Shown here one piece after another: positions 5,800 to 60,780 of a stretch of 64,000 bases of DNA. This DNA comes from Raja brachyura (lineage: Eukaryota). The notes below the pieces were generated by a model. The model saw only the letters and a program-made list of their open reading frames with translations. It was not told the DNA's origin and searched no databases. The translations under genes were made by a program, and so were the position numbers. The stretch lies in NCBI GenBank assembly GCA_963514005.1, contig OY740817.1, forward strand, positions 4,464,001-4,528,000, in the 5' to 3' direction. Position 1 is the first letter of the stretch; every line of letters begins with the position of its first letter.

Positions 5800-5971
5800 C
5801 GTTTAAGAAGGAACTGCAGATGCTGGAAAAACGAAGGTGGACAAAAATGTTGGAGAAACTCAGCGGGTGAGGCTCGAAACTTGAAGAAGGGTCTCGACCC
5901 GAAAAGTTGCCTATTTCCTTTGCTCCAAAGATGCTGCCTCACTCGCTGAGTTTCTCCAGCATTTTCGTCTA
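5800..5971. mobile_element. Penelope-derived terminal repeat in inverted (fold-back) arrangement
   Basis: tgttggagaaactcagcgggtgaggc versus gcctcactcgctgagtttctccagca; contains gaagaagggtctcgacccgaaa. Confidence 0.75.
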
Positions 5972-7906
5972 CGTTCAAACATTTTACCAGCTGCAAAGCA
6001 ACTTCAAAGTCCTGGTAGACTTTTAAATTGCTTTCAGAATCTCTCATAAGCATTAACTTCATGATTAACATAATTAAGTCTAGAGAGATTTTAGTGAATC
6101 ATGATAAAAAGACACACTTCTATCTTAGCACTGAAGTGTTAATCTGTAACTATATCAACAATTAAAATTGTCAGATTTCGCAGCAGCAATTATAAATTAA
6201 CTTCTTCACAATCTCTAATATTAAACTATAACTGTCAGATCCCACAAAGCTGCAATTAGATATTAACTTCTTCACCATCTCCAATGAAAATTATCAACAA
6301 AATATTATTTTATTGAGTGATTTTGCTCACTCGTAGGTTTAAAAAGCACCAGTAGTGAATGGCAAAAACTCTGTGTGGAGGTGCACATTTTCAGGAAGTT
6401 TGAAAAGAAAAGCAGAGGTAGAAAGATACATTATTCACAAAAATGCATCACAGAAGAATTATTCTGATACACAACTTCAATCAAATGTTATCACTTTGTG
6501 GTCCCGGATAGAGCCAGTTTAAACTTCACAACTTCCAACCGTCCCCCTTTTCCAAAAAAATAATCCTTGTCCAGCCAAAGGAATGTCAGTAGATTATTTT
6601 ATTGGGACAATCACCATAAGTAACACATTGGGTTTTTTTAAAACCATATATTGTTTTATTTGTGTGGTCAAACAACAGTCATAGGATCAACTTTTACTGT
6701 TTTATTTGTGATACCCTTTATATGTGTACGATAATGACGAATAATCCCCAAACCCAATTGAAACGAGCAATTTGCTAAAATAACCCTTATTAATTTCCCT
6801 TACATAATGACTCTCGTTAAAATAACACATTTTGAAAGTAATTAACTCGCATACGATTATTGTTCAAAAATTCTCTACTGAGGAGAGTGAACAAATTCAA
6901 ATTGTCTTGCCATCTGTGGTGCTTGCTCAGCCATTATAAATAGGGCAGGATGTGCAACAAATAGCCATAAATTGATAACAAGGAGTGTGCCACTCTAGCT
7001 GTGTTGCAGTTAATGATAGTGTGCTTCTCCTGAATGCCTGCTCCTTCATGTGCAAACTTTACTTTTAATTCCAAGACTATTAATGGCAACTTAGACCTCT
7101 GACATTTTTGAAGAAGTTCACCTCTCTATGCATTTTATGATGACATCTTTATTATTCAAATTTAATATGCCACTTGGACATTGATAAATGAATAGAACTT
7201 CCACAATATTGGAATTAGCAAAGAACTACTGAACTTGGTTTCTAAAATGGTTAATAATGGATCTCAAGTAATTTATATGTTACATTCCATACTGGAACTA
7301 CTTGCTTCAGCCTACTGTTTTAAAAAAAAACAACCCATATGTTATTTCCAAGCCATGTTTATAACATAGTAAAACATAGAAGTTTGTCATGTGGCCCTTC
7401 ATGCTTGATCCAACATTCAATATCATAGCAGATCACTCAGCTCAATACCCTGTCCTACTTTATCCCCATCTCATATTCACACCACCCAAGCTTTATATCA
7501 CCCACAAACATGAAAATATTGAATCTAACTTATTTTCTCATGTACTATACCTTGGAATACCTAGACGTATTTAACATTCCTTAGCAGACATGCGCAGCAA
7601 GAGAAGGCACAAAGGGAAACATTCTTCTCATTGTTTTAATGTCAACTGTTATAATAATAAGGGAGATCCTATCTCTGTCATTAAGAAACTTGATTTGTTT
7701 GTATATATCAGATATTTAAAGTTCAGTTGATAACCGTGTGCGCATGCAAATATGAATGTTTCAAGCAATAATTGTATTAAAATGGTACTGTTCGAGTTAA
7801 TATCACAATATTTTGTAAGAAATGGGAAAAGAGATATGGTACAAAAGACAGATGGTCTAAAGACTACTACAATTTACTCTTCACTGTAGACATATTCGGT
7901 ACTTAC

Positions 7907-9200: not shown

Positions 9201-9344
9201 CCCCTATTACAATCAGACTAAAGAAGAGTTCCATTCCCAAAATGTCATCTATCCTCCACAGATGTTGATGACCCGCTGAGCAACTCCAGCACTTTGTGGT
9301 CTATACAAGATTCCAGCATTTGTAGTTCTCCATCACGTCACAAA

Positions 9345-10345: not shown

Positions 10346-10761
10346 TGAAAAAATGAATTATAAAATTGCTCTTTCAAAGAGTTAATGGACATACAGCCAT
10401 AAAATCAATAACAAGATTTCTAAGTAATAGGACAAATGCACACCATTTAATTTTCACTTAAACATTTGTGTTTTCAACTATTTATACTGATAAATTGGAT
10501 TTTAGAGGGACTCCAACTGCAAATGAACCTGTTTTTATGTGAAACCCAGAACCCAATTCCCTAACGTTGCTCCTTACAGCTAATATAAGATAGTGCTGTC
10601 TTTGAGGGAGTTCATAAACACTGGGGTATCCACTGCAACCATTTCATAAGATTACCATGCTGAGAAACAAGGCATTAAGGAATAGAGTGCCTCGTCATCT
10701 TTACTTGATTTTCCAAATTCCACATTTTATGCTGGAAGTGGCCATAGGTGTTCGTACTTAC

Positions 10762-10899
10762 CTGTAAGCCATTGATTAAAGATTCATGCCTTGTGTGGCA
10801 TTCTATCTTTTCTACTCTGTTTTTCAGCTCTGCCAGTTTCTTGTCGAAAACACCACTTTGTATGGAGCTTATCCGCTCTTCAATAATTTGCTGAACGAT
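10762..10899 (-). CDS. ATF7IP: ATF7IP exon in the SETDB1-binding coiled-coil region (IVQQIIEERI...VFDKKLAELKNRVEKIEC...LQ)
   Basis: Matches ATF7IP VFDKTLAELKTRVEKIEC. Acceptor tttttgcacag|, donor CAG|gtaagt; 138 nt, phase 0 to 0. Confidence 0.95.
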
Positions 10900-11589
10900 C
10901 TGTGCAAAAATAAGGAAAAACATATTTGCTTACCATTAATAAAAATAATGCTCCCATTCCCATTAATCAGCTTCAACTGAAAAATTTAGTTCAGTGTTTA
11001 TAGTTGTAATTGACCATTGTGATTTCTGGAAAAGAACACAGATGGTGTAATTCTACATGCAGCACACTTTCTGATGTACTGTACAGGAACTTGGAACACA
11101 TTGCCCAGAGGGTGCTTGTTGTAGCACATGCACAGACCAACATGATCATCATTTAGACACTGCAGATCTCCAATGTGACAGTTAAGTAAAAGTAAGGCTG
11201 GTAGATAGATTTTTGGATGGTTAATAACACAGCATTGGTGTGTGTGTGTGTTTAGGGAGGGGCGGGGGGAGTAGTGGGGGTGCATGAACAAAATGCAAAT
11301 TCAGTCTCAACACTGAATGGTTGAGCACCCTAAAAGGGTGACCTTCGCCTAGTTGATAAGAATGTGCATTTATTTTCCAGACCCGGTTCAGGAAATAACT
11401 GAATCTCTGGAAATGCGAATATCTAATATTAGAGATCTGCCAACCATGAATCTAAGTAGCAATATCAGATTGGCAAGGTCAAAAAAAGACCTGTAGAGAA
11501 AATGAGATTAAGAAAATGAAAAGAAATGCACCCAGGAAGGCCTCGATGGAGTCCGTCCATTTTATTCCAAGAATTAAAATGTGAAACTG

Positions 11590-12075
11590 TTATCAACTGT
11601 CATTAAGCTGGAAAGGGTGCAGAGAAGATTTACAAGGATGTTACTAGAGAGACTGACCTGTAGGGAGAGGTTAGGGAGACTAAGACTATACTCCTTGGAG
11701 TGCAGAATGCTGAGGGATGTTGTTGTGGAGATGTATAAAATCGTAAGGGGAATAGATAGGGTGAATGCACAGCCTTTTACCCTGGGCAGATAAATCAAAA
11801 ACTAGAGGGTTTAGATTTAAGGTGAGTGGGGCAAGATTTAATAAGAACCTGCGAAGCAATTTTATCACTCAGAAGGTGATATGAAATGAACTGCCAGAGG
11901 AGGTAGTTGGGATAACTACTGTGACATTATTTAAAACATACGAGGACAGATACATAGGCTGGAAAGGTTTAGAAGTAGGAGGGCCAAACACAAGCAAATG
12001 AGACTTGCTTAGATGGGGCACCTTGTTTGGCATGAATGAGTTAGAACGAAAGGCCTGTTTCCATGCTGTATGACT
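11590..12075 (+). mobile_element. CR1 LINE 3' fragment
   Basis: LERVQRRFTRML...ERLGRLRLYSLE...YKIVRGIDRV followed by a CR1 tail. Confidence 0.88.
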
Positions 12076-12229
12076 TAACTATTCTAAATCAAGTAACAGG
12101 AAAGACTTTCATCTGTGCAAAAACAAAAATGGCAAATGCAGCAGAGGAAGTAGTGCAGGCCAAGCTATTACAGAAATTGGAGGTGACAACATTGGCTTCT
12201 GCATGAGATGAAGCTGTTGAAGGAAGAAC

Positions 12230-12840
12230 ACTTCACTGAACACTTGCACGCTGTCCATCAATGCCTGTAGTAAGGCTACGTAGAAACTGGAGGAACAGGG
12301 CCTCATATTCCACTTAGATCGTTTACAACCTAACAGTATGAACAGTGAATTATCCAACTTCCAAGTAATACCCCCCGCCCCGTTTCCTTCCTGTGTCATT
12401 GATCGCTATCTCGGTGTGTGCCCATTCTTTTCCCAACTCCCACCCACTCTCCTCGAGTTACCCTGCTTCTTCCCCTCCATCCTATACACTGCATCTATCT
12501 CGAAACCCACCACTTCCCTTTTTCTATCGCTCCCACCCTCGTCATTCCCATCCCAGATCCCCTTCAACCCACACCCCTCCCTCCAACTTTAAATTTTACT
12601 CCTCCTCCTGTCCTCATCTTACCCCAACATCTTTTCTCTCCTTTTGACCACTGTCACTTATTCCAGCCATCTGCCAATCAAACTCCCCTCACCTATACGC
12701 ACCGAACACTTGACAGGCTTTGTCCTGCCCTCACCTCTTTACCACCTTTTATCCCCTATTCCAATTAGTCTAAAAGGTCCAGAAGAGTCTTTTCCCTCCC
12801 CAAATGCTGCCTGACTTGCGGAGTTCCTCCAGCACTTCCT
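12230..12840 (+). mobile_element. Penelope-like element 3' part (GIY-YIG endonuclease C-terminus, pyrimidine-rich UTR, terminal repeat)
   Basis: RKLEEQGLIFHLDRLQPNSMNSELSNFQ resembles the Penelope endonuclease end; it is followed by a C/T-rich tract and tgctgcctgacttgcggagttcctccagca. Confidence 0.75.
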
Positions 12841-12936
12841 CCAAAGCAGAGTTCGTATTGAACAATGACATGGTGTAAAGAATGAGCCATTGTTTGCCAA
12901 TGATGTGGTACACATACAATAGAATTGGTCATATAC

Positions 12937-13106
12937 CTTCTCCAGTGTCTCTCGAATCTCGCCTCGAGCAGTGATCTTCACTTTTAAGGCTGCTTCATAT
13001 TCATCGCCAGAATATCGACACCGCTTCGATATACTACTGTCCATGTCTTCAGACTTGGACCTTTTTCGTGGCACTACTTCATCTACAATGACGGACAAGG
13101 AGTTTT
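12937..13106 (-). CDS. ATF7IP: ATF7IP exon (RKRSKSEDMD...KVKITARGEIRETLEK)
   Basis: Matches the ATF7IP KRSKSEDMD...QVKITAKGD segment. Acceptor aaatag| at 13107, donor AAG|gtatat at 12936; 170 nt, phase 1 to 0. Confidence 0.92.
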
Positions 13107-14460
13107 CTATTTTAAGTAACACCATTCAGTCTATCAAAGTTAAATTTTATTTGTAAGCCATTTTTCACAATCAGTGATCAGATAGTTATGGTCCATACGG
13201 TGAAGAATAAAAGGAATATCACTCACAATATTACTCTTTTCTAGATCTACGATTATGGTAAAATTGGTAGGAAAGGATGGCAAGTCACATGACCAATCTG
13301 CAGAACTGTACACTGCAAATATTGTCACTGTTCTAATTTTCTCTTCTGATTCTGCAACCAACTATTTTATTTTCTAATGTAAAAACCCACTTAATTTGCA
13401 GCTGTAACAGCCCTCTAAGAATTCAGTGCAGCACTTTTTGGAAACAAACTAAGTTTACTCACCTTGTGATATTTTCTAATCATTGCCTCTTATCCCAGCA
13501 CATATCCCTTCCATTTCATGCGAGAGATCATTAATAGAAAACTTGTATTTCATGGAAGTACTTTCAGAAGTACTAGAACTTACTCAAATCATCAGCAAGC
13601 TGACAGAGGGAAAATGATAGCTTCCCGAAAAGTTTGTTAAACGAACAAAGCTAGGGAAGACATATAAAAACCATAGACGGGTGACACAAGATGCACTTGT
13701 CCTTCATCACTTAAGCAGCTTTTGCTTATGGTAATCATTAAATAAAGAGAACAGGAAATGGAAGTTTTGACCTTGTATGGCGAGGGATACTATGCAGAAA
13801 TTAATTATGGCAGAAGGTATTTATGGACAGGGTATCACTAAATATACGCCAGTTGCTAAGAGTTGTTCCATACAACAATACTGTCATGTCACACCCTAAT
13901 GAGCACCAAAAAGAAAAAAATAGTAATGTCTGACGTTTCACCACCATCCTGTCCCTATAGTTCCTACAGAAACATGGTGCTTTTAACGGAAAGCATTGAC
14001 CGCAATTTGTTTTCTATTTGACTATTCAGCACAAGCTCTGAAAAAAATGTCCACACGATATGAAGAGTCCTCAATTGCCTAATACTGTAGCTCTCCCTGT
14101 ACTGTACTCTTCCTCCAATTGTGACATTTCTAGGCTACCAAATGTGTGCTACACTTGTCAAAATCGCAGCCACTTTAATTTCAGCAAAGGCAGATGTGGA
14201 ACAGTAGAATTAGTGCTACTGACAACAGCAACAATACTTATGACTAAATGGGAACTTTAATGAAAAGACTGTTTTGTACATGTTTCAAATGGGCTACAGT
14301 TACAGAACACAGTCCAATGCACCACCTTAAGTTACGATTAGGGATACTTTAATGAGGGAAAAATCTGGAAAATGCAATATAATTGTAAAACCAAAGATAT
14401 GATGGTATCTTCAATAATCGACTTTGTGAAACATTTGCATTAAATTTAAAAAACACTTAC

Positions 14461-14511
14461 TTGGTTCTTGCTTTTGTCTTGTGTCAACTGCTTGCTCTTT
14501 GTGGACTATAT
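14461..14511 (-). CDS. ATF7IP: Candidate 51-nt symmetric ATF7IP exon (DIVHKEQAVDTRQKQEP)
   Basis: Acceptor ttttgctttgtag|, donor |gtaagt; phase 1 to phase 1 and stop-free in the required frame. Confidence 0.7.
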
Positions 14512-15183
14512 CTACAAAGCAAAATGTCAAAGCGCCAAATGAGCCAGGGATTAATTATGTGCCACAAGCATTTAATTGAAATATTGCTGTTTTCACCCTC
14601 ATGGTTCAAATTTAACCATTACTGGGAATTTGGACGTTCTCCCTGTAAACTGTGTGGGTTTTCTCCAGATGCACCCACATTCCAATAACAAAGTCAAATG
14701 GTCTGAAACAACTCACTTTGTTGGCCCTGATACCATTAATTAATATCAGAACAAAATAGCCATCAACTTTAATTAACCTGTAACTTATTTTCCATTGCCT
14801 ATCCCAGCTACACGGAAGAATTGACGGTCTGTCTTAAGCTACCTGGGTCACACTCTAGGGGGGCAAAAGAACAAACCTGAATACCTCATTGCCCAAACCC
14901 TCCCTAAACAGCTCTCTGACCAAGTTTTTGACCTACTCACCAAATCCTCTGGTTAAAATCCATTTTTTCAAAATCTGATTACATGCTTTTGAAGCACCTT
15001 CAGATTTCCTTATAATATTTAAAGGGTTTATACAAATGCTTTCACAACACCTTCACAATTATATCATTTCTCAGGCTATTTTTAAAAATCCTCATTTATG
15101 CTACAGGGTTTTGTCCATGTCCATTATCAATAGTCATAATTTGATATTACGTGAAAATGTTTTGAACCCTTCAAAAGGAAGGC

Positions 15184-15184
<1 letters not shown>

Positions 15185-15220
<36 letters not shown>

Positions 15221-15265
15221 ATATATATAGTGTATATATATATGTATGTGTATATATGTATGTGT
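15185..15265. repeat. Compound (TA)n/(TG)n microsatellite
   Basis: Directly visible in the sequence. Confidence 0.95.
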
Positions 15266-15470
15266 TTTACACATTGTGCAAGTAGCAAGTTCTTTTTGTT
15301 GAACTTCAGCAACAAGCTCGAAGGCAAGAGTTTATAACAATCTCTGTCCTAACAATCTATACCATCACGATACAAAACCCAGAATTTTTCCACGTTTATA
15401 CCGTTAGACAAATTATGATGAATCACACCCATTAGGAGAAAGAACAAAAATCCTACTTAAAAAAAAAATA

Positions 15471-15934
15471 CAGGTCAATCACTGATTTTCTGGAAACTGG
15501 TGGTCCGGCAATTGGTGGTCCACCCCAGAAGTACCCCGGAAAATATGGCTCCTAAGCAGAGTGAGCAGATCGATCTCTACTTCATCGGGACTGCCACATA
15601 CTTCAGTGGGTCAAATTTGCCCCCTGCTGCCTGTGTTCTGGAACTGCAGCCTGGTTAGAGCAGGCAGACCCACCCCCATAGCCGACTTCCACAGCTGATC
15701 GGCTGCTTGTATTTGTCCCCTGCTGCCAGGGCTCTGGAACTGCAGCCTGGCCGGAGCCGGAAAATCCATTCCCATAATTGACGCTGCAGGAAGATATCTG
15801 CGCCTCTTCGCAGCCTAGACGGACCATTCCGGTTCCGTTGGACTCCTTTCAGGGGACCTCTTTTGGTTCAGCAAAACAGATAATTCAGAAAGGTTCTGGA
15901 ACCAAGGGTGCGGGAAAAACCAATGGTCGACCTG
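15471..15934. mobile_element. Tc1/pogo(Tigger)-type MITE
   Basis: TA|caggtcaatcactgattttc ... gaaaaaccaatggtcgacctg|TA; imperfect TIRs, plus an internal ~45-bp direct repeat at about 15617 and 15712. Confidence 0.7.
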
Positions 15935-15989
15935 TACATACATTGAGCAAGTGGTAAGTAGTATAAGTGTCCAACTCGGCAATTCTTTG

Positions 15990-16200
15990 GTCGATTGCCG
16001 GCATCATTGACTGGCATATCAGGTCACATAAAATTTGCGGCGTGATGCGGCGGTGACGATGTATTACGCACGGTGTTTTTTTAAGTGTCGCAACATTTTT
16101 TTTGGTGCCGCTAGATTTTGAAATGTTCAAAATCTTTTGACGACACTGATATGACACCGACAGTCGCCTAAAAAATAAAATCGGCAAGTGAGACAGGCCC
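15990..16200. mobile_element. Harbinger-like MITE, right part
   Basis: Ends aagtgagacaggccc; CpG-rich, with an internal ttttgaaatgttcaaaa palindrome. Confidence 0.65.
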
Positions 16201-16296
16201 TAGATGAAAGTGTAACTAGCCTCTTAAAACTTCAAACTGCACCCAAATTTATTGAGCAAGACTGCACAAGATAATAATGACAATAATAAGTCATAC

Positions 16297-17392
16297 CTGG
16301 ACTATCATTTTTTGGTACCAGCTCTTCACTTTCTCTTTGTATCTCAATTACTGGCTCATCCTCATCTGATAAGACAAGAAATGCCTCTTCCGGCAAGCTG
16401 CCATTACATTCCTCTTTTGTTGGAGAACTATTGAGAAAAGTGTCCATTTGTTCTTCTTGCACTGAAATGTCCTTTGGTGTTGGGGATTCCACTTCAGGAA
16501 CATCTTCTTGCTTGTTGGATGATTCACTGTCCTTCTCTGGGGCCAATTTCTCTAAAATAGGAATTATTTCTTCGATTTCCAGTACGCAATTCCCAAATGA
16601 TCTGCACTCACCTGCTGTGTCTTTTGCTGCATTTTCACTCTCTGCACACTCCATCTTAGAGCTTTCACAATCATTTTTCTCCTGCACAGATTCTATGCTA
16701 CTTGATATAGCCTCTTCACTAATATCCATTGAACTTTCATGGTCTTCCTTTTCTCTCACAGAGGAAGAAGGAGACTTTAACTTAAGGCTATTTTCATCTG
16801 GTACATCATCGTGATCCCTGTTTTCGTCCATAGAAGGTGGTTTCCCTTCTAGTAAAAGGCTCTTGGGTTCAGTACATGATTTAACTGTAATTGGAGAATC
16901 TTCCTTCAGCACAACAATCTCTGAATTCACTGCAACATCTCCTGTGCTCTCATTATCCATTAAATCTTGGTTTTCTGCATTCTCAGTAGACGCCTGTTCA
17001 TCTTCAGCAGCCGGGCGGGTTGAGTCATTTTTTTCATCTTGGGGTCTCAAATCCTTATCATCATTTGGACATTTTTCAGCAGGACTCAGTTCAGGTGTTT
17101 GTGCAACACCAAGTTCATCAATGGAGTTGCCCTGTAGTTCCTCTGGACCTAGCCTCACATCATTAATGCTATCAATGTCTGTATCATCCATGCAGTTGGT
17201 ATTTAGAGATATTTTGCTGTCAGAATCTCCATTTTCATGTCTACCATTACACAATTTAGTTTTGTTTTCGTCATTTGATTTTAAAAGCTCCTCTTTGCTT
17301 TTATAGACGACTTCTAATTGTTGACGGTCACTTGTGCGCATGGTTTTTCTGGCCTTGAAAACTTTTCTTGGAAGCTCTTCATTGGTATCCAT
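16297..17392 (-). CDS. ATF7IP: ATF7IP/MCAF1 first coding exon (N-terminus and acidic low-complexity region); the exon starts at 17402 with 10 nt of 5'UTR
   Basis: MDTNEELPRKVFKARKTMRTSDRQQLEVVYKSKEELLK...NGRHENGD matches the vertebrate ATF7IP N-terminus; IPILEKLAP and EAFLVLSDEDE motifs are also present. Acceptor ttcctttctttttag|G at 17403; donor CCAG|gtatga at 16296; phase 1. Confidence 0.95.
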
Positions 17393-17917
17393 CTCAGAAT
17401 GCCTAAAAAGAAAGGAAGAAACTGTCAGCAGTGACTTGTTGACTCAACCAGCCAGACTATAAAGTCAGTGACTGCTGAGTATTTCATAACTTTTGATAAG
17501 GAAATATTTTCAGATGATTTATACTTATAATGACTTTCCCATGCAATTTTTTAGTATATGTAATAAATTTAGTTGAGCTACTTTTGAAAATATTAAAGAA
17601 CCTTTACCTAATTAACCAAGCAGTAAAATGAATAAATTATAATATACCAATTCAGAGCCTATTATGTACAATGTTAATCTAACAGCTAAAGACCATTGTC
17701 ATGAAATATTGATGTTTTCTTTCTGCAGATGCTACTCAACTTATTGAACATTTCTAGCATTTTCTTTATTTACATTAAAAAATTGACAAACGTTGGCCAA
17801 AATTATGCCATCAATCATAATAATACTTTATTAGCCAAGTATGTTTTGCAACATATGAGGAATTTCATTTGCCATACAGTTATACTAATAAAAAGCATCA
17901 GAAAGCACAAAATACAT

Positions 17918-21000: not shown

Positions 21001-21969
21001 AACTCCATTTTGTCCTTACAGAGATCCAATGACATCCTCCATCTGTAATTTCCATAACATTAACATTCCTTTCATGGAGGTCTTGTTGCACTGAAAACAA
21101 ATATTACCTTAGCTTTGACCTAGTTGCCACGTATTCTGTCATCCTGACCTTGTGATTAGGAGAGGAAATGGAAACATTTAACAGTGATCGTCCAATTTGC
21201 CCATAAGCACAGGTGTGGCTTTTCCACAGTAGACAAGATCTATCTTCTGGCCTGTTTACAGTAATAATGCAGCAATCAACAGCAATACATGCAATTTACC
21301 TTGTCGCCCAACAGCAAAATATCAGGGATACTGGAAATTTAATCTGTGTTTTCATGCAAATTAATTGTAGAGAATTTTAATGGACAGAGATGGGTGGGAG
21401 AATTTCCACTTGGCTGGGATTGAAATCCATGTTAGATCAAATTTACATACCATTTTATTTTTTCGGTTTTAGATTACAAAATTCAGACAAAATAAGATTC
21501 TTCATTCACTGGTTACTGATCAAATGCTCAAAGTAAAAAGTTAATGCAACGCATTTGAATCAGTTCTTTTTTAAATCCTGCGTCACTCAGTAAATAACGA
21601 ATCAGGATGCCTAATTAAAGTGAAACAATAGTTTTGAAAAACCCCCCACCCGTTTGCAGAAGAGGAATAACTCCAGGGACATTGGCTGCATGTAATCATG
21701 CTGCTAATCTCCCGCGAGATTTATCAAATGATCACATTGTTAGGCAATATCCTGTTTTCGCAGTTTGCAACATTGTTCCGCCTATTCAATATTAATGAAA
21801 AATGCAACCAACATTTGATTCCAATCCAATCTGATTTGCCCATCCCATAAAGCACCATGAGTGCTCCACTTTCAGACCGGCAGCTGCACTGAAACATGGT
21901 TCAATGGATAAACAATTGCTGTCCCAATCCTTTGTTGCATTTGATAAACTGTTAATTATTCAAAAATGA

Positions 21970-22060
21970 GACACAAAAAGCTGGAGTAACTCAGCGGGTC
22001 AGACAGCATCTTTGGAGAAAAGGAATAGGTGACGTTTCGGGTCGAGACTCTTCGTCAGAC
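21970..22060 (-). mobile_element. Penelope-derived mini-element with a hammerhead-like core
   Basis: Minus strand reads CTGACGA-AGAGTCTCGACCC-GAAACGTC-acctattcc...tgctgtctgacccgctgagttactccagc. Confidence 0.75.
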
Positions 22061-23280: not shown

Positions 23281-23615
23281 AGGGCATGTCCCACTATACG
23301 AGTTTACCCAAGAGCTCTCCCGAGTTTAAAAAAAATCAAACTCGTGGTAAGAACGTAGAATGTACGTAGCTCGGTATGTCGGAGCTCGGTACGTCTCTTA
23401 GCGGCTCGTAACACTAACAGCAGGTACTCGGGCAATGCGGTAAGTTTGTGAAGTTTTTTCAACATGTTGAAAAATGGCAACATGTTTGAACATGTTGAAA
23501 AATGTCCACGAGAGCCCCGAGTACTTACGAGTGGCTATTACCGTAATTCTCTGAGTTCGAATCAGGGGAAACTCGGGAGAACTCTTGAATTACCTCGTAC
23601 AGTGGGACAGGCCCT
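23281..23615. mobile_element. Complete PIF/Harbinger-like MITE
   Basis: About 45-bp TIRs agggcatgtcccactatacgag...ctcccgagttt and aaactcgggag...ctcgtacagtgggacaggccct, with TAA flanks. Confidence 0.9.
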
Positions 23616-23734
23616 TAAGTGAGTGTGCTTGTTATAAATCTCATGGCATTTGTTTTTTTTTGCAGTATCAAGGAAAGGCAGGCTGTTCTGAAAACATTAG
23701 CCAATATTTATGGAAACTATCTAATTAACTAGTA

Positions 23735-23862
23735 AACACAAGATGCTGGAATAACTCAGCGGATAGGCAACATCCATGGAGAAAAGGAACAGGTAGCGTT
23801 TCGGGTCAAGACCCTCTTCAGACTATCTTCGGTGTAAACTAGCATCTGCAGTTCCTTCTTAC
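23735..23862 (-). mobile_element. Penelope-derived mini-element
   Basis: Minus strand CTGAAGA-GGGTCTTGACCC-GAAACG, followed on the plus strand by agcatctgcagttcctt; aattaactag occurs on both flanks (about 23723 and 23864). Confidence 0.7.
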
Positions 23863-30650: not shown

Positions 30651-30999
30651 AGTGAAATTCCTTTTAATGAGGTTGAACATTTTAATGCACTCGGATGCTT
30701 TCCAATATTGTTTATCAAAAACTGCAGATGATGGGAATTTGAAATAAAATCAGGGCTAGGGTTCAGCAGTTAGATTTCAGAACTGATAAAATTCCAACAA
30801 AGGGTCTTCAATCTGAAATGTTCTCAGTCTCTCTTTCTATCAGAGTATTTGATATGCTGAGTGTTTCCAGCATATTTGTTTTTATTTCACAATATTGTTT
30901 GTTGTTTTGTGCTCTGAAGACTTCCAAAAATATTCTTCTCCTGGTTTTGTTTCCTTGAAACCCATACAAAGAGCAAAGGTTACAGCTGAATCATAGTCC

Positions 31000-32064: not shown

Positions 32065-34255
32065 AGGCGTGGACGCTAAAACTGCTGACTTTATGTACGA
32101 AGAACTTTTCGATGAAAACCCATTCGCAGACAAAAAAAGATGAGATCGGGAAACAGCTCGCAGATGGATTCAATGAGGCAAAACGCAAACAATGGCAGAA
32201 GCTAATAGAAACAACAGACCTACGACACAGCAGCAGGAAGGCATGGGGACATTGAGACGTCTCGGTTATGACCCCACCCACAGTAAACCACGTGGAAATA
32301 TGACTGCTAACCAGGTTGCCCACCAGTTGTTGTTAAACGGCAATAGTGGTAAGAAACCTGCACCCCCAATGGTTGCTGATGGCAATAACCGAAACGACGG
32401 ATGGTACACTCAACCTTTCACCATGAGCGAACTTAACAAAGCCATGAATGTGATGAAACCTAAGAAAGCAGCTGGCATAGACAACATCAGAACTGAGCTG
32501 TTGAAACATCTGGGTCCCAGAGCACAAGAATGGCTGCTGGAGATGTTTAACATCTGCATAGCAACCAACTCCATTCCACGAGTCTGGCGGAAATCGAAGG
32601 TTGGTGCTTTACCAAAACCAGGCCAAGATGCCAATCTTCCCAGCAGCTACCGGCCTATATCCCTGCTGTGCCACCCATACAAACTGATGGAAAGATGCAT
32701 CTGAACCGCATCACACTGGATGTAGACGATGTCTTGATACCTGAACAGGCTGGGTTCCACCACGGAAAGTCAACAACAGGACAATTGCTGAACCTCACTC
32801 AGCCCATTGAAGATGGCTTTGAGTGAAAGCTGATCAAAGGTGCAGTATTTGTAGACATGTCTGCAGCATATGATACTGCAAACCACTGTACCATGAAAGC
32901 CAAACTGCAATAAACACTGCAGGACTCTCATCTTGTCCAGTTCATCATGACAACGATGGAGAACTGCTGCCACTTCGTATGTCTGAATGGTCAGAACAGC
33001 CGTTGGAGACGGCAAAATAATGGTCGACCACAGGGCAATGTCCTTGCCCGAACATTGTTCAATATATACGAATGACCAACCTATCACCCCGAAAACTAGG
33101 TTGTTTCTGTATGCCGATGACATGCATCACAATGCAATCCTCAGACTTCGGCCAGATTGAGACTGTACTAGAGGTTGCTCTGCAGAATATGACAACATAC
33201 TACCAACAGAACTCCCTGCAGCCAAACCCAACAAAAATGCAAAGCGCAACTTTCTACCTCCGGAACGCGAAACGTCAACTGCTGGTGCGATAGAATGATG
33301 TCCTGTTGTAACACTGCAAAGCCCCAAACTACCTAGGTGTGGTCCTCCTACTCCAATTTCAGGTAGTCCCTGCTTTCTCCCTCTTTCCCCTTCCCTTCCC
33401 AGCTTTCTCACAGCCCTCTGTCTCCGCATCTTCCTTTCTTCCACATCAGTCTGAAGAATGGTCTCGACCCAAATTGTCGCCCATTTCCTTCGCTCCATTG
33501 ATACTGCCTCACCCGCTGAGTTTCTCCAGAATTTTTGTCTACCTTAGCTGTGGACCTCGATCGCAGGTTATCATATCGCCAACATGTTGAGAAAACCAAG
33601 GCAAAGGTCAATACCCGGAACAATGTCATAAAAATAATTGGCAAACAACTCATTTGGAAGTGACCCAACAACGATTCGCACTGCAGCCCTGGCGCTCTTT
33701 CTCATTGGCAGAATATGCAAAGCCCGTCTGGAGTCGCACTAAACATGCACGCAAGGTGGACTTTGCATTGAACACTGCCTGCAGGAGGACCACAGGATGC
33801 CTGAAGCCAACAAAGGTTGAACATCTGTACGAGCTGGCTGGCATCGATGAACCATCTCGAAGACGTGATCGGTCAGCTGTAGTAGAACGCTTTAATGCGG
33901 ACCCCCATCACCCCTTGCACAATCACCAACATGCCAAGAAACGCTTGGAGAGTCGGGACAGCTTCATGGAACTAGAGGCAACCGTGCCAGACTCCAAAAC
34001 CAAACGACAGATGGCACCAGGACACCACCTGCCTTATACTACCTGGAAAGCCCTAAACCGCCTCCACACTGGAGTGGGATGTTGCGGACTCAACCTTAAG
34101 TGGGGCATCTCAGACTCTGACAAGTCCAACTGTGGAGTGGTGCAGACAATGGCCCACCTACTGACTTGCGGTGGAGACGCACGCACTGCGGACGATCTCC
34201 GCAGAGGCACTGTCGCAAAGTGATGGCAGAATGTCGTCTGACACACGAGCGAACG
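32065..34255 (+). mobile_element. Vingi/Ingi-like LINE, decayed RT, interrupted at about 33348-33538
   Basis: PFTMSEL...KAAGIDNI..ELLKHLGP...YRPISLLCHPYKLMER; FVDMSAAYDT; YAD; WKALNRLHTGVG...CGVVQTMAHL. Confidence 0.8.
33348..33540 (+). mobile_element. Penelope-derived mini-element inserted in the Vingi-like LINE
   Basis: Pyrimidine tract followed by cagtctgaagaatggtctcgaccc...ctgagtttctccag; flanked by an imperfect duplication ctacctaggtgtggtcctc / ctaccttagctgtggacctc. Confidence 0.8.
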
Positions 34256-41725: not shown

Positions 41726-42759
41726 GGTGTGACGATCAGTGGGCATCAATTTTTGGGCTCATCGCCTTTGACCGTCAAAAGAAGATTTTCTGAAATCAAA
41801 GGCAAAAATCATCCGCGAAATGAAAGATTGGAGATTATCAAATTTCTGTCAACCTGGGCAGGTCTTTGGTTTCTCACTACAGCAGCAAATGCAGAGATGT
41901 TTAAACAAAGGAAAAGAGCAAGGCAATTGGAGGCATGTGAGAAGCTTACCTTCCAACCCAAATTAACATGTAGAATAATATTAAACAGCATAAGAAGGGC
42001 AAATAATTAAGGACATCAAATGGAAATGTTATGATTTATAAAGTCAATACCCAATCAAGTTTGCTGAAGAATATGTCAGTGAAATAAAATATGATAGAAG
42101 GCAAGGTGAATTAGGAAAAAACAAATAGAAAAGGAGAAAGGAAACGGTCTTCCACGATCAGCAAGATACAGGTTCTGCAGACTCATTTCTTCTTACATTA
42201 CAAGTGTTGAGAATAGTAAACAAGGCCAAATCAAAAGAGTGAATGTTGTATGGTGCTCACTTAAGGAGCAGAACCAAACTGTTTCTTTTGCTATATTTGG
42301 ATTTTCATTTGGTACAGGCTCTTAAGACTGTATTTTCCTCAAAAAATGTTGCTGCATATCTTTGATGAATACTGCCAAAATGTTGGACAATAAACCCAGA
42401 AGCTCATAAATAATGATCACAAGCGTGATTTTCCAATCTTCAGTGAATGGTCCTTGAACCCTCCAGCACATCAGCAGTGATCTACATGCATGTTTAATTT
42501 TTTTTTTAGGTTATCCAATATAAATATCAGCCCCATTCCACCTAACCGCACATTGGAGAAATGAAACAAATTGGGAGATTCTGTACAAACCTAATACAGA
42601 TGCAGGAAGCATAAAAAACAATTTAGTATTTTGTTGAGAGCTGTACAAGTCAGCACCAATAATGGCAGTTAATGCGAAACACTGCTGTGAAGAGAGATCA
42701 GGAACAAAATATGATAGAGGATGGTTTAATCCCAAAAAGCAAATTTTGCAGGTGAATTT

Positions 42760-42915
42760 CAAATAAAAGCAGAAAAGACCAGAAATACTCAGGTCAGGCA
42801 GCATCTGTGGAGAGAAAAACAAAGTTAATGTTTCAAGTTAATACCTTTTCAACATTCTATTTCTCTCTCCACAGACACTGTCTGTCTTGCTGTGTATTTC
42901 CAGCACTGTTCAGTT
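42760..42915. mobile_element. Old fold-back Penelope-derived element
   Basis: Inverted arms aaatactcaggtcaggcagcatctgtggagaga and tctctccacagacactgtc...gtatttccagc; a similar element lies at 45690-45830. Confidence 0.6.
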
Positions 42916-44060: not shown

Positions 44061-46929
44061 TACGTTTTAGACTTTGTGCCATAATTTGCATGGTGGTTCA
44101 AAAAAATAATTAAATGTATCCAATGAAATACTCTTGCGTTTGCTGCTAATGAAGTTCATCCCTCCATCAACCACACACACCCGTTCAAGAAATATATTTT
44201 AAACTAGTCTTGTGACATGGATGCAAAATTCTGTTGCAATAACACAAAAGCATTGATCTTATTTAATGATGATCTCAACATTTTTTCCCAATTTGGATAA
44301 GGAGTCATTTTGAATGTCTATATCAGTCATTTGAAAAGGAAAGAAAATACAGGAGTCTCAACTTGAACCCAATATTTCCATGTATTAATTTCTCCACCAA
44401 TTCAGTAAAACATCTGATTAAAGTAATTTTAATTTCTATAGGATTCTTACATACACTGTATGGATTCAAGTATGGAGAGTAGTTCAATTGTCTGCTTGTC
44501 CCACAACAGTCTAAAATTATTATTTAAAAAACAATGCCTTTTTTGCTTTTTACTTTTTCCTTCCTCATCTTTGTAAAATACCGTTTTGATTTCACATAGC
44601 GAATGCGTCAAAGTGGAATGGAATCCGAGTTCAGTTTGGATATAACATGAGTAAGTCAGAAGGTGGTCTACGATTCATTCCACCAGTAGCTCCTACAAAG
44701 TCATTTCAGATTACTGATCAGTAAAGTTTCCATTGCACATCACCCATACCTGCATGTTAAAAACCAAACTTCATCCACCAAGAAGATTTTGAATTTCATT
44801 TTCCTTATATATCAAATAAGCTTCTTTCCAACAATAATAACTGGGTACATACATTGACACTACCAATCCAGTTGCTGAAAAAAAAGTCCTCAAGGGTTCA
44901 CATGCAAAAGAGCACAAAAAAACAATTGCGCTCAAGATATTGCACTTGAAACTCTCCCCAGCCTTTCGCAAGTTAAGATTAACTTCAGAGCACATCTCAT
45001 TCAAATGAACATGGTGGCTCTGCACTGGCTCAGCAAATAAATATACGTATAAAGTACTCAGCCATATAGTCCATGATTTCATCTTTGATCTCAATGGTGT
45101 TATCTTGTGGAAATGTTGACCTCACATTTTTTGCAAACTGGCGAATGTCATTTAGAATTGCTACTTCTGAACACCACCCAGTAATCCATGCTGAAAAGTG
45201 AATTAGTGGGATGAGAACAGAAAGGGGCTCAGAAATGATGCCCTTATCTGGGTTCACACAAACGCCATGTGAACGGAGGCATGAAAAGGGCACAGGTATG
45301 CATAATATGAACAGCACCTTTGTGTCATCCCGAGAGAAAAACATGACACGCTTATGCAATAGCAAATTTTGATTGCTAACATAAACATAGAAATACTACC
45401 GTACCTTCTGGTTTATTTCAAGCAGACCATTCAGTGTTACACTTTGGTCCGTCCTGAAAGAAATTGGGAAATAACTTTAGACTCTAACAAAGCATTTTAA
45501 TAAGCAATAGTCAACAGAGAATAAACATGCAACATACACGTCTTATTAACACAGCAGCATCAAGAATATAGTTGAATTTTATTCAAACCACTAACTTTAC
45601 AGAGTGTTGAGAATATAAAGTTTCACTTAGTATACTGACTGAGATTCCAAAAACAAACAGCAAAATACAGAAGGATGCTAGAAGTTTAAAATTAAAACAA
45701 AAAATACTGAAAGCAAGTCAGGCAGCACATGCGGAGAGGGAAACAGTTAATCTTTCAGATCCCGAACTGCATTTCCCTCTCTCCACAGATGTGGCCAGAC
45801 CTGCTGAGTAGCTCGTGTTTTTGTTTTCGCTTGTAATTTTATAAAATCTCACCTTTCAAATTGTGTTGCTCAATACTGCACAACAACTATATAACTTAAA
45901 TTATTAGTGACTGTTTTGTCCTGTCTGTTGTGAAGAGTTTTCAGTTGTAAACTTTCATCATAGCAAATTAATTTAATTATCTAACTACAAATCACCTGTA
46001 AAGTATTTGGACAAAAATGTGGATAGCAAGAATGTGAGTTTACACAATTTGTCTAAACTTTGATAGATTAGAGCAAATAATGAAATATCGTTGTTACAAA
46101 TCTCAGGATTCATTTTAGAGATTTCACTGTATTGATCATACCTGTAAGAACATGGAGTGGAGAGTACCTTCAGGGTATTTTCAAGAATTATGTAAGACAA
46201 TGGTTAAATGTCCTTTACACATCTCAGATGCGTGTCTATAATGCTCGATATCTAATCATACTGTAGAATTAGAACGGATGTAGTTTGCTTCAGTCAGAAC
46301 CCCCCCCCCACGATAAATGCCTTATGGTTTTACTACTGCTAATTGTTAACCACCAGGGTATCACCTGGAAGTATATTTTCCAATGTGGGTATCTTAGATG
46401 TCACCAGTGGTTCCAACAGCTGCCAATATTGACACGAATTAACAGAAACCACATGGTCATAAAGACTTGAATCCTTGGAAATATAACCTAGCAAATTAGT
46501 CAACTGAGTCAGAAATAGATCAAAATTGGAGAGCACATGCAACAACAACAAAAAAATTCCAATTTAGTTGAACGACTCATTTTACATGAGCAAAATGCAT
46601 TCAATACACCTATCACTATGGATCGATTTGACTTTACATACAAGTTGAAATAATTGTTTTAAGAATGAGGTTCTTGCCCAACAGATTACATAGCCTCAAG
46701 TTTCACTCCAGAGCACATAAATCAGGTGTTCGTAAGCTCAGTGATAGGAGCAGAATTAGGTAATTTGGCGCATCAAGTCTACTCCGCCATTCAACCATGG
46801 CTGATCTATCTCGCCCTCCGAACCCCATTCTCCTGCCTTCTCCCGATAACTCCTGAACATGTTATAGAAGCACTGTAATACAGAAACTGCCCTTTTCAAA
46901 ATAATTCAATGGACATTCAATGGAGCTTG

Positions 46930-47140: not shown

Positions 47141-47999
47141 CATATACATTTTAGTTTGCTCTAGTAATAAATTAATGTCCATTTTGAATGCAATATCATT
47201 CTGTCCTTACCACTGCACTGTTTTCAATTATTTTGTGCTGGTCTGGGTTATGTTATTTTCGCAATAGGCAGTCATTAGTAAAATGTTTGGAGGGAAGGTA
47301 CAAAACTGGCAGGACAACATATTTTATACAAAGCTGCAGCTGATTTAATAAGGGAATATTCTTTAGCAGTTACTAGGGAGGTTTCTGAAGATAACTCATC
47401 AAATTAAAACAAATCTGGATTTAACAAATAAGCAACATTGAACAGAGACTTGAGCTTCATAGATCGAAGCAAACGGATTATTGTTGGTAAAACACAGATG
47501 TTTCCTGAGACCCCAAAACATGCATGTCAAATAATACAGAAGATTTTGTAAATAGAATTTGTTCAACTTTTAAAGTCCATACAGGTATTCAAGGTACAGG
47601 AAAGGGGGAATTCAATATTTTTATTTCTAAATTGTATACTTTGCTTCTAAATTTAATTCTTTCCAGATTGTAAATTCTGTTAAACAGTTGAAAAGTTTAG
47701 GAACAGAACCCCCCCACAAGTTTGCAATGTAAACATATTCTGGTATTTTGCTCAAATTCTTTTGAAATTTCTGTTGATCCTAGTGCAAAAAAAAAAAAAC
47801 TTGCTGGAGTAACTCAAGGGAAATGGAAGTCTCACTGAATTTCTCCAGCAGTTTGGGTTTTTTTAAATTTGCAACAGACTCCAGCATCTACGGTCTCTTG
47901 TTGGTCCTAGATTTTAAAGATGGTTTCAATATTTTTGAATTAGTTCTCAGAACATACAAATTTGCACGAAATATAATGAGTATTTTATCATTATGAACC

Positions 48000-54860: not shown

Positions 54861-57519
54861 CAAATGACCAATATATACACCATACTCAGAAATACCATGT
54901 AAATGACGGAAAGTATACTGCTTTACAAACTATCCACTTGCCCATCCTGCAACCCTTGCTCCCTCTGTGAAAGAGTCAGCAGTTCACACATGGTACTCCT
55001 CAAATGACTCAGAACCCATGGAACTGGAATAGAAGTCTTCCACAATATCAAGGGATATTCTAAGGAAGAGTGGGCATGTTAAATGCTCTATAGTTTATAA
55101 CATTACTCTCCAAAGACAATATGGGGATGGTTGGATAATCACATGATTCCCTGAGTAACCAAAAAACTGTTGACCCATCTTCAATGAACACGACTTAAAT
55201 TCATGAAGATTCACAATTCTTAGGGAAGAATATTTCCCTCAAAGTCCTAAATAGTTAATTTGTTATTCTGAGATAAATTCTTTATTTTACTCGTCAAATG
55301 ATCAAACCTGACAAAAATACAGATACATTTATTCCCCAGACAATTTATTTTCAGAATTTCATACATCTAATTTAAATTTATTTTAGTATTGGGCTTAAAC
55401 ATTTTTTCAAAACTTTAAAATATGGATAACATACAGATTAGAGTAATATTCTAGATTTAAAGACAATTGGAAAATAGCTCATGTCAGGTGGACACGTAGC
55501 AACAATACTGTAGCTCCAATACAAGTCAAGGTTAAACAATTACTTTTCATTTATGTCTGGAAGGTAATTTAAATTAAAGTCTCTTGTTAAAAATGACCCA
55601 AAAGGAACACAATTAATGCTCATGGCATGTCCAAATTTTCTGCTTCAGATATAACTGGATGAGAACCTATGAACCTGCTGTTTTTAACCACCTGACTTCT
55701 CAAGCCTCCTCACCATTGAATAAGATCATGGTTCACCTAACTGCATAGTACACTCCACAATTCAATTTACAGCAGTAACCTTTCTTTGCCTTGCTTTTCA
55801 AGTACCTACCTCCACCTTAAAAATGTTCTGACTATGCACTGTCATGAGGAAGATAGTTTTAAAAAACTCACAACTATTGAGAAAATTTAGCCTTATCTAT
55901 GTCATATAACAGGTTTCCTCACATGAAAAAAAATTACTCGCTACATCCATCTTATCGAAACTTCTTAGGATCTTTTATGTCCCCATTACTCTTCCAAACA
56001 CAGGTGATGACAAGCCTAGCGTGTCCAACCTTTCCTCATAGGACAATACATCTCTGGAGAACATGGATAGGTGACATTTCAGGTCAGGATCCTTTTTCAG
56101 ACTGAGCAGAGATCACGGAGGGGGAGCAGTGAGGGAGAGTTTCACAGAACACCCATCAGAGAACTTCTTCAAAGTAGGCATACCTTATGCCTCTCATAAC
56201 TTTATATGCTTCTATCAGATCTTTATTTTGTCAATATTGGATACATTTCTATTCGTTGCAAATAATTCTATATTTCATTTTACGTATATTTTGTATCATC
56301 CTTTGCCAAAATGTGACTACCTATTTGGCTTCAAGATCTAACTTATCAAAGATTTTTTTCCCTCCTAATTACTTCGGCTGGGAGCCTTGGAATAACCCTT
56401 CTGCGTTGAAACATTATTAACTTCCCTATTAAAAGGTATAGGTATAAATACCATTTTTTTCAAAGCACGGCAATAAATTTGTGCAAGATAATTGCTTTAC
56501 TTCAGTAACTTGAATGCCCAAGTTGAATTTTTTTTAATACCTACAAAGATAATTACAGAATCATCTATCACCAAAAGTTCATTTTCAGAGCATTGTAAAT
56601 TCTGCTGTGCAGTATCGGAATAACATGCACTTTTATACAACAATAGTCATTCCTCCTTACTTGCTCATAGCCTTGACTCGTTTTAGCACTAAGTACTAAG
56701 CAAAAGGGCAGGACAAATACAAGAGATGCTAATCAGCATCCGATTGTTGAGTAGTACGTAAATGATCATGCACCCACAGACATTGCTCAATTCCGCAGCA
56801 TGTGCTGCAACTCCAGTTGCCATTTCTCACGCCCTACTCAGCTGCACTTCTGCTGCCCCAGGCATTAGTTCCTTTCGTTTCCAGGAGACGGCTGACAGTT
56901 GCTGAGCAACCAGACTAATAATTAGCTCAAAGTAGGCTAAAACAGTTGGGCAGAATGCCAGTATTGAACAGAATAAATTCTGTTCTCCAAATCCATTGGC
57001 AGAATAAGCGAACCAGTGTTAGCATCCTCTCCCAAGCCAAGATCTCCACTGTTGAGGTTGTAATTCACTCTTGTGAGAAAACCATGTAGTTCACATGCCT
57101 GATACCAGGCAACCAAAACAGACATGTATTTGGACTCCATTTAATTTCCTGTTGTGGTTGAGCTCAGAGAGATCTTCTCAGAGCCTCTAAGAAAATGTAA
57201 CCACTTTGATTTGAGGGAGTCACTGATAAATAACTCAGAATGGTGAACAAGCATGACATGGAGAACTTCAAGTCCATTTCTTTAAACACGCAAAGGTAAA
57301 ATGTAAATTATGAAGTGTTCCCACTCTCAAACTATCCACATGTGTGCCCATGTCGTGACAGTCTGCAGGATCAACAAAGAGGTCTGTCACCTCAGAATGT
57401 GCGATTCTCAACCCTGAGGGACAGCCTAAGTGAACAAGGGACACAAGATTCAGAAGCAAAATACGAGGAATAAATAAGTGCAAAATATATGCCACAATTA
57501 GCATTAATTGCACCGATGA

Positions 57520-59677: not shown

Positions 59678-59775
59678 AGGTAGGCAAAAATGCTGGAGAA
59701 ACTCAGCGGGTGAGGCAGCATCTAAGGAGCGAAGGAATAGGTGACGTTTTGGGTCAAGACCCTTCCTCAGACTGT
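59678..59775 (-). mobile_element. Penelope-derived mini-element
   Basis: Minus strand CTGAGGA-AGGGTCTTGACCC-AAAACGTC...gctgagtttctccagca. Confidence 0.75.
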
Positions 59776-60599: not shown

Positions 60600-60780
60600 A
60601 AGATTGAATGTTTAAGAAAGAACTGCAGATGCTGGAAAAATCAAACGGTAGACAAAAATGCTGAAGAAACTCAGCGGGTGAGGCAGCATCTATGGAGCGA
60701 AGGAATATGTGACGTTTTGGATCGAGACCCTTCTTCAGATTTTTCCAGCATCTGCAGTTGCTCCTTAAACATTCTATCTT
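60600..60780. mobile_element. Fold-back Penelope-derived mini-element
   Basis: About 40-bp inverted ends aagattgaatgtttaagaaagaactgcagatgctggaaaa and ttttccagcatctgcagttgctccttaaacattctatctt, enclosing a minus-strand hammerhead-like core. Confidence 0.78.

What the first reader, a model, noticed from the sequence alone, without database searches (positions are those of the whole stretch)
22031..22058. Dispersed family of Penelope-derived mini-elements carrying a minimal hammerhead-ribozyme-like core
Seen: about a dozen short (90-200 bp) copies, near 5880, 9215, 22031, 23795, 30800, 33450, 56070, 59095, 59742 and 60709, share the consensus CTGAnGA-(A)GGGTC-TC-GACCC-GAAAC-GTC. This gives the CUGANGA box, a stem II hairpin, GAAA, a palindromic ACGT minimal stem III and a GUC cleavage triplet. 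The 22031-22058 copy (minus strand) keeps all core nucleotides; others carry core mutations. Established: Penelope-like elements encode minimal type I hammerheads thought to act as dimers. Seen: related terminal sequence follows a GIY-YIG-like end at 12230-12840. Inference: a non-autonomous, retrozyme- or SINE-like family mobilised by Penelope. Many copies are sense to the ATF7IP pre-mRNA. Caveats: stem I pairing is weak and there is an extra A after CUGANGA.
Basis: partly seen in the sequence, partly recalled or inferred. Interest (0 to 1): 0.7.

Follow-up and report, generated by a model that had tools for sequence, protein, structure and literature searches.

The report
Dead Penelope hammerhead end-pieces, fixed ends
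These short repeats are the hammerhead-bearing end of a known kind of jumping gene (a Penelope-like element); this copy has a broken stem and no partner and is likely inert, and the one notable point is that many copies begin at the same few bases, likely where the element's RNA starts.

Summary
The motif is real at 22031-22058 (minus) and has every minimal-hammerhead core base. Stem II, however, has an A-C mismatch, and stem I is 2 bp. The family is the last 95-135 nt of the terminal repeat (pLTR) of a GIY-YIG Penelope-like element. A near-intact ORF and a tandem junction were found in this genome. It gave 697 hits in a 1.6-Mb sample and 49,263 exact intact motifs genome-wide. The short copies are not a separate SINE or retrozyme lineage: 1 of 324 allele tests separates them from UTR-linked copies, and the essential G12 decays like a neutral CpG. 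None of 19 window hits is intact. The extra A after CUGANGA is a published trait, not a caveat. 3' ends fall at two sites about 35 nt apart (the published 'tail'). 5' ends pile up 0-5 nt before CUGA, not at the cleavage site. Best reading: short cDNAs run from an internal RT start to the RNA's 5' end. A cap-G test did not replicate. A sense bias towards ATF7IP is not shown. This scan reported the same family before, on this and other genomes.

The parts
21967..22060 (-). Solo short copy: GT, hammerhead, downstream stem region, ending at the short 3' end; no pLTR UTR upstream
   Evidence: no target-site duplication seen by eye
22031..22058 (-). Minimal hammerhead core C3-C17, complete; stem II 22050-22047/22042-22039 with A-C mismatch at 22049/22040; predicted cleavage site between 22031 and 22030
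12233..12367 (+). Decayed GIY-YIG C-terminus of the element (one in-frame stop)
12368..12837 (+). Pyrimidine-rich 3' UTR and pLTR end of that copy; hammerhead core deleted; lies in an ATF7IP intron, antisense
5801..5991 (+). Head-to-head pair: inverted long-tail arm (5801-5873) plus direct copy (5882 onward) with damaged C3 and stem III
9214..9328 (+). Heavily decayed copy
23732..23861 (-). Copy lacking one base before stem II and with a broken U16.1, plus an inverted tail arm (23822-23861)
30717..30878 (-). Old-subfamily remnant, no recognisable core; missed by the profile
33447..33556 (+). Copy with part of the UTR upstream; G12 lost
42747..42907 (-). Old-subfamily head-to-head pair, core lost
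45674..45823 (-). Old-subfamily head-to-head pair, core lost
47829..47899 (+). 3' fragment without hammerhead
56048..56104 (-). Copy with G8 lost, 3' part cut
59016..59108 (-). Copy lacking the CUGANGA box
59673..59774 (-). Short-end copy; G12 lost (CpG decay)
60610..60770 (-). Long-end copy plus short inverted tail arm; G12 lost
61203..61234 (-). Small 3' fragment
10678..17443 (-). Host context: ATF7IP coding exons (frames 16232-17443, 12739-13125, 10678-10929)
   Evidence: the first exon's identity rests on recalled similarity, the other two on Pfam ATF7IP_BD (one weak, one strong)

Best explanation
The copy at 22031 is one of very many short end-pieces of a Penelope-like retrotransposon's terminal repeat, likely inserted directly by the autonomous element's own enzymes and likely inert where it now sits. 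Shown: each piece runs from just 5' of the hammerhead to one of two fixed 3' ends, matches ORF-linked copies, and decays neutrally. Inferred from PMC11167929: the two 3' ends are the two internal RT start sites. Inferred, about 50%: the 5' pile-up marks the RNA's 5' end, an Inr-like YCAGT start just before CUGA. RT starting about 100 or 135 nt inside the RNA would then run off after one short stretch, like strong-stop DNA. Two such cDNAs primed from both target strands would give the head-to-head palindromes. Because a copy ends at the RT start site, it would lack the downstream RNA the protein needs and could not easily be copied again. The ribozyme is kept by selection on source elements, not on these copies, and uncleaved RNA is the usual template.
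For: Link to the element: GIY-YIG end, then a 90-500 nt pyrimidine-rich UTR, then the motif, in 73 of 105 GIY hits by a strict rule (includes duplicate fetches), plus 3 with shorter gaps. An 856-aa open frame with RT motifs and GIY-YIG (Pfam E 0.00047, below the curated cutoff) ends in this unit. A tandem junction from tail into ORF is seen in L074, with 98 exact copies genome-wide. Fixed ends: profile start at positions 1-8 in 290 of 463 and 139 of 239 hits. In 168 strict solos the templated signal fades from -1 to -5 and is at background by -6 to -7. 3' ends: 199 short, 165 long, 85 other of 449. No peak at the cleavage site: 5 of 463 and 2 of 239. TSDs of mostly 11-14 bp in 12 of 111 solos vs 1.3% null. 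No solo-private alleles. Neutral decay: G12 altered in 90 of 279 vs a control CpG G in 56 of 279; youngest cluster core 13/589 vs control 48/1636, p=0.46. 1,237 perfect head-to-head palindromes are centred on the same 5' edge.
Against: The RNA 5' end was never seen; only contigs were available, and they cannot show ends. The cap-G test failed to replicate: discovery 12 of 22 (p=0.004), held-out 3 of 7 (p=0.20). The genome-wide excess (G 4,404 vs A+T 5,073) is confounded: 10 of 20 sampled G copies have an adjacent inverted arm that can supply the G (8 flagged by the script, 2 by eye). Many solos keep C at -4 (0.35) and T at -5 (0.39), upstream of the proposed +1 A. Core A positions are better kept than control A positions (3.4% vs 6.6%; overall p=0.0015), which is not fully neutral-looking. 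The UTR library had only 38 entries, so some 'solos' may be diverged UTR-linked copies; about a dozen were. Most solos show no TSD.
Confidence: 0.72

Rival explanations
1. The 5' edge is a splice acceptor. The pyrimidine-rich UTR is an intron (GT at the stop codon, CAG just before UCUGA), and the short copies come from spliced or splice-site-stalled RNA.
For: In most older subfamilies the UTR begins at GTA overlapping the stop codon and ends in YCAG, over lengths of 90-500 nt. In D. virilis Penelope the intron ends at the 5' side of helix I (PMC4209133). One genomic copy joins the ORF end straight to UCUGA (L263).
Against: Only 1 such copy was found genome-wide, against about 112,000 GIY-YIG candidates. 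The same short sequence can stand at both ends of the UTR, so a deletion explains it too. Solos share no upstream exon beyond 5 nt. The youngest family has a poor donor, yet its solos keep AG. A back-splice junction motif gave 5 hits, 2 exact. No clean GT-AG joint was listed in four contig sets, with 78 joints not shown. PLEs are reported to retain introns, so genomic absence is weak evidence.
Confidence: 0.2
2. RT works on long read-through RNA and falls off, or is joined by microhomology or annealing, at the CAG-N-CTG near-palindrome or where the pyrimidine tract begins. The 5' edge then says nothing about where the RNA starts.
For: Inverted partners start mostly at the palindromic edge (65 of 146 at profile 1-5), with a second bump in stem II (21 at 16-20). 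Several TSD-resolved solos show 1-3 nt of microhomology at the junction. C-4 and T-5 are often kept. Palindromic head-to-head junctions are described in PMC3846280.
Against: 190 solos have no inverted partner to anneal with, yet end in the same window of about 15 nt, while 109 UTR-linked copies spread over about 285 nt.
Confidence: 0.25
3. One reading: a non-autonomous SINE- or retrozyme-like family that is transcribed, self-cleaves as a dimer and is remobilised in trans.
For: Uniform unit length, TSDs and very high number. Five short-period tandem arrays (125-328 nt) of the young family's tail-ORF junction exist elsewhere in the genome (not fetched). A preprint derives animal retrozymes from pLTRs and reports them in one cartilaginous fish.
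Against: No private alleles, no separate clustering and no added head. The core decays neutrally. 0 of 19 window hits are intact. 1 of 99 close same-strand pairs has both copies intact. 5' ends are not at the cleavage site. The active-like dimer fold scores -4.9 against -21.5 kcal/mol for the inactive fold.
Confidence: 0.1
4. The 22031 copy has been kept as a regulatory ribozyme in ATF7IP pre-mRNA.
For: It is the only window copy with a full core, and it lies on the gene's strand about 4.6 kb upstream of the first coding exon.
Against: 134 of 367 sampled copies keep the core, so one per window is expected. Stem II is broken, and the predicted folds do not form the hammerhead (z 0.83). Its position inside the transcript was not shown.
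Confidence: 0.02

Closest known systems
Minimal hammerheads (min-HHR) in pLTRs of metazoan Penelope-like elements (PMC4209133)
   Same: Same core, extra base before stem II, G10.1-C11.1 pair, palindromic 15.2-16.2, place in the pLTR, and mostly single or opposite-strand copies attributed to truncated elements.
   Different: Stem II is 4 bp (7-8 in Schistosoma) and stem I is 2 bp (4-5 there, 2 in D. virilis). One dominant sequence with no compensatory changes. At least 49,263 exact copies, against about 4,000 and 9,000 reported for coelacanth and Xenopus with another search method. Cartilaginous fish are not named in the parts read.
Poseidon element of green anole, PAc (PMC11167929)
   Same: Two internal RT starts bounding a 30-40 nt tail, downstream of the hammerhead. 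Uncleaved RNA is the main template, and no RNA ends were seen at the cleavage site.
   Different: Here the ORF start lies about 35 nt beyond the tail (L074), not in stem II, and the ORF has a Neptune-type linker zinc finger. A fixed 5' end of short copies is not discussed in the parts read.
Neptune-type EN+ Penelope-like elements (as described in 10.1101/2021.04.23.441226)
   Same: RT plus C-terminal GIY-YIG, CX4CxxC linker, partial tandems, inverted 5'-truncated copy, tail.
   Different: Clade not tested by a tree. Short hammerhead-to-tail pieces outnumber GIY-YIG ends about 14 to 1 (697 vs 48 hits in 1.6 Mb).
Non-LTR retrozymes (PMC7229834; 10.64898/2026.07.22.740005)
   Same: Type I hammerhead, pLTR ancestry, reliance on PLE enzymes.
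   Different: Retrozymes are tandem 150-450 bp units, in PMC7229834 with canonical hammerheads and circular RNAs. These copies are dispersed singles or head-to-head pairs, with a minimal and mostly broken motif.

Membership tests
PLE minimal hammerhead | Core CUGANGA, GAAA, UH | tested here: met
   0.93-0.96 identity at non-CpG core positions in 284 full copies
PLE minimal hammerhead | Extra base between 9 and 10.1; G10.1-C11.1; palindromic 15.2-16.2 | tested here: met
   traits listed in PMC4209133
PLE minimal hammerhead | Paired helix II | tested here: inconclusive
   4 bp in the family majority; A-C mismatch in the 22031 copy; no two-sided covariation
PLE minimal hammerhead | Helix I of 2-5 bp | tested here: met
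   2 bp only: U-A or U-G 86%, G-C 92%, third pair 4%
PLE minimal hammerhead | Located in the pLTR of a PLE | tested here: met
PLE minimal hammerhead | Self-cleavage as dimer or with protein | not testable with these tools
   predicted folds favour inactive states
EN+ Penelope-like element (source) | Single ORF with RT and C-terminal GIY-YIG | tested here: met
   856-aa frame in L063; motifs and Pfam hit below cutoff
EN+ Penelope-like element (source) | Partial tandems, inverted 5' copy, 30-40 nt tail | tested here: met
   3' ends at L063 6627 and 6662
Neptune clade | CX2-5CxxC linker | tested here: met
   residue 723 of the L063 frame
Neptune clade | RT phylogeny | not tested
   no tree built
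Non-LTR retrozyme | Tandem units each with a complete hammerhead | tested here: not met
   none in the window; 1 of 99 close pairs in 1.6 Mb; five unfetched arrays elsewhere
Non-LTR retrozyme | Self-processed linear and circular RNA | not testable with these tools
   only contigs were served
SINE-like non-autonomous family | Own lineage, distinct from the partner element | tested here: not met
   1 of 324 allele tests; nearest-neighbour identity equal
SINE-like non-autonomous family | Own pol III head | tested here: not met
   unit collinear with the pLTR from its first base; no tRNA scan run
SINE-like non-autonomous family | Defined ends and target-site duplications | tested here: met

The most novel reading that the evidence does not exclude
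Most insertions of this element are strong-stop-like cDNAs, made from an internal RT start to a capped RNA 5' end that lies three bases before the hammerhead core, with the cap copied as an extra G. Hundreds of thousands of copies would then map the promoter and both RT starts in vivo. They would show that hammerhead cleavage is off the insertion path. They would also explain why stem I is so short and why more-than-unit (tandem) RNA is needed for a full copy.
Probability: 0.35. Interest if true: 0.5.

Novelty: new member of a known kind. Interest (0 to 1): 0.27.

Why it matters
The locus itself is ordinary: one damaged copy among roughly a million fragments (697 hits in 1.6 Mb, scaled to 2.7 Gb). 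The family has modest value as a natural experiment. How PLEs make pLTRs, tails and head-to-head copies, and what their hammerhead does, is still open. A young, very abundant family with sharp 5' and 3' ends makes those questions testable with 5' RACE and a reconstituted reaction. At least 49,263 exact motifs in one genome exceed the vertebrate min-HHR counts in the paper read, though the search methods differ.

Tried and rejected
Rfam, window and intact copy: no hammerhead model hit; the minimal motif lies below these models, so this is no evidence either way. Covariation in stem II: almost all changes are one-sided or CpG decay; GC to AT at the first pair occurs in 8 of 356, about 5 expected by chance. 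Not informative. Fold z-scores: 0.83, 1.06, 0.56, 0.29 and -1.05, none significant. Pairing of the long tail with the CUGAAGA box is predicted in the young family but not in a second family, so it was not pursued. Cap-derived G: suggestive in discovery, not replicated, and confounded genome-wide. Cleavage-site 5' ends: no peak. Spliced or back-spliced copies: 28 hits for a loose junction motif, of which 1 has ORF sequence upstream; 5 hits for the back-splice motif. Sequencing runs: all 24 were contigs, and 2 of the 4 laid were flagged as probably DNA, so there is no expression evidence. RNA-level splicing stays open. Sense bias to ATF7IP: not shown. Literature: three searches showed no paper on this family in sharks or rays, judged from listings and abstract starts only. 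Repbase, Dfam and subscription journals were not searched.

Full report
Observation. The minus strand at 22058-22031 carries CUGAcGA, one extra A, a GAGU/ACCC hairpin, GAAA, CG and UC. All core bases are present, but the hairpin has an A-C mismatch at 22049/22040, and only two pairs of stem I can form. The copy runs from about 22060 to 21967. None of the 19 keeps both core and a 4-bp stem II. Reversed-sequence controls gave 0 hits. Rfam has no matching model.

What the family is. The window's genome is 2.7 Gb; that it is a shark- or ray-type genome is my inference from recalled repeats and earlier notes, not a test. The piece at 12233-12367 is a decayed GIY-YIG C-terminus. In fetched loci the same C-terminus is followed by a pyrimidine-rich UTR of 90-500 nt and then the motif (73 of 105 GIY hits by a strict rule, duplicates included; 3 more with short gaps). 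A protein search gave about 112,000 candidates, with the best 150 at 96-100% identity. L063 holds an 856-aa open frame with RT motifs, a CX4CxxC linker and GIY-YIG (Pfam E 0.00047, below cutoff), ending in UTR, hammerhead and tail. L074 shows the tandem junction from the tail into the ORF start. So the short repeat is the last 95-135 nt of a pLTR.

Abundance. I took 160 evenly spaced 10-kb stretches of large contigs. They gave 697 hits, about 1.2 million fragments if scaled, against 48 hits to the GIY-YIG end and 2-6 to the RT region. 89 of 697 keep core and stem II. An exact pattern found 49,263 intact motifs genome-wide.

Ends. 3' ends fall at two sites about 35 nt apart (199 short, 165 long, 85 other of 449). 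This is the tail that PMC11167929 (parts 1-2 of 4 read) maps to two internal RT starts. 5' ends pile up at the motif's edge: 290 of 463 and 139 of 239 hits start at profile positions 1-8. Of 445 classified copies, 190 have unrelated 5' flanks, 146 an adjacent inverted copy and 109 more UTR. In 168 strict solos the element's bases fade from -1 (T 0.71) to -5 (T 0.39), and background is reached by -6 to -7. Starts at the cleavage site are not enriched (5 of 463, 2 of 239). TSDs were found in 12 of 111 solos against 1.3% in a null. 1,237 perfect palindromes are centred on the same edge; such junctions are described in PMC3846280 (passages).

Not a separate family. Solos and inverted copies differ from UTR-linked copies in 1 of 324 allele tests at p<0.01. 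Best identity is 0.861 to other solos and 0.858 to UTR-linked copies (163 and 92 copies). Both members are intact in 1 of 99 same-strand pairs within 500 nt. Retrozymes are tandem units (PMC7229834, passages; preprint 10.64898/2026.07.22.740005, part 1, passages and Discussion). Five short-period arrays elsewhere in the genome may qualify but were not fetched.

Selection. In 284 full-length copies, subfamily variation sits outside the core, which points to selection on source elements. After insertion, the essential G12 (a CpG) is altered in 90 of 279 against 56 of 279 for a control CpG G. Core C, G and T positions change as often as controls. Core A positions change less (3.4% vs 6.6%), which gives the overall p of 0.0015 and may reflect sequence context or older source differences. 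The youngest cluster shows no difference (p=0.46). There is no two-sided covariation. Predicted folds do not form the hammerhead in the 22031 copy, and an active-like dimer is about 17 kcal/mol above the lowest fold of an intact copy. This fits the low, dimer- or protein-dependent activity reported in PMC4209133 (parts 1-2 of 4) and PMC11167929.

Mechanism. Most likely the autonomous protein primes inside its own RNA, about 100 or 135 nt from the edge, and copies to a stop just before CUGA. I put about 50% on that stop being the RNA's 5' end: YCAGT resembles an initiator (recalled consensus), the edge is sharp, and solos have no partner to anneal with. My test for a cap-copied G was 12 of 22 in discovery (p=0.004) and 3 of 7 held-out (p=0.20). 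Genome counts were G 4,404 against A+T 5,073, but 10 of 20 sampled G copies have an inverted arm. It stays unresolved. The splice-acceptor reading has a fitting GT-AG anatomy and a Drosophila precedent, but only one joined genomic copy, no shared upstream exon and no RNA evidence. Fall-off or annealing at the palindrome remains possible.

Host gene. ATF7IP lies on the minus strand. The three copies below its first coding exon are antisense. The minus-strand copies lie upstream of that exon, where the transcript was not mapped. No regulatory role is indicated.

Verdict. A new member of a known kind: PLE minimal hammerheads dispersed as truncated single or opposite-strand copies, as PMC4209133 describes for other animals, with the structure summarised in 10.1101/2021.04.23.441226 (passages). 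The scan noted the same family four times before. Three literature searches showed no paper on it in cartilaginous fish; supplements, Repbase and Dfam were not seen. Interest 0.27; the strong-stop reading would deserve 0.5 if shown.

Noticed in passing
G000 C6:81429553-81430005, C22:20179208-20180216, C6:11726034-11726267, C36:17869732-17869951, C5:77626361-77626510: Short-period tandem arrays (214, 328, 209, 195 and 125 nt) of the young element's tail-to-ORF junction; possible true retrozymes.
   Followed up: no
L074 (minus strand, about 3050-3090): A donor-like AG/GTATG overlaps the ORF's first ATG about 35 nt beyond the tail. The frame from that ATG runs 1,017 residues without a stop to the edge of the locus.
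   Followed up: partly
L063 3720-6662: A young family: the 150 best GIY-YIG matches are 96-100% identical, with open frames up to 856 aa; probably recently active.
   Followed up: partly
L017, L020, L027, L029, L030: Five loci on different contigs share flanks beyond the element's ends, so a composite unit containing it has itself been multiplied.
   Followed up: no
L263: One copy joins the ORF end directly to the hammerhead: exact intron loss or a microhomology deletion.
   Followed up: partly
window 49900-50450: CpG-richer stretch with donor-like sites on both strands and a GCGCATGCGC motif (recalled as NRF1-like); possible promoter, not assigned to ATF7IP.
   Followed up: no
window 3154-3335, 4160-5116, 23280-23616: MITE-like elements with terminal inverted repeats of about 50 nt.
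   Followed up: no
window 25954-26577, 28204-28983, 32177-34223, 40825-41229, 1665-2165: Fragments of other retroelement-like and Tc1-like ORFs (labels recalled, not tested).
   Followed up: no
window 52692-52829: 65-nt inverted repeat with an 8-nt spacer; weak miRNA-model hit only.
   Followed up: no
profile positions 53-59, 79-85 and the tail: Each of the two 3' ends lies a short way after a CCAGCAT motif that can pair with the same upstream AGATGCTG; two alternative helices may set the two RT starts.
   Followed up: no
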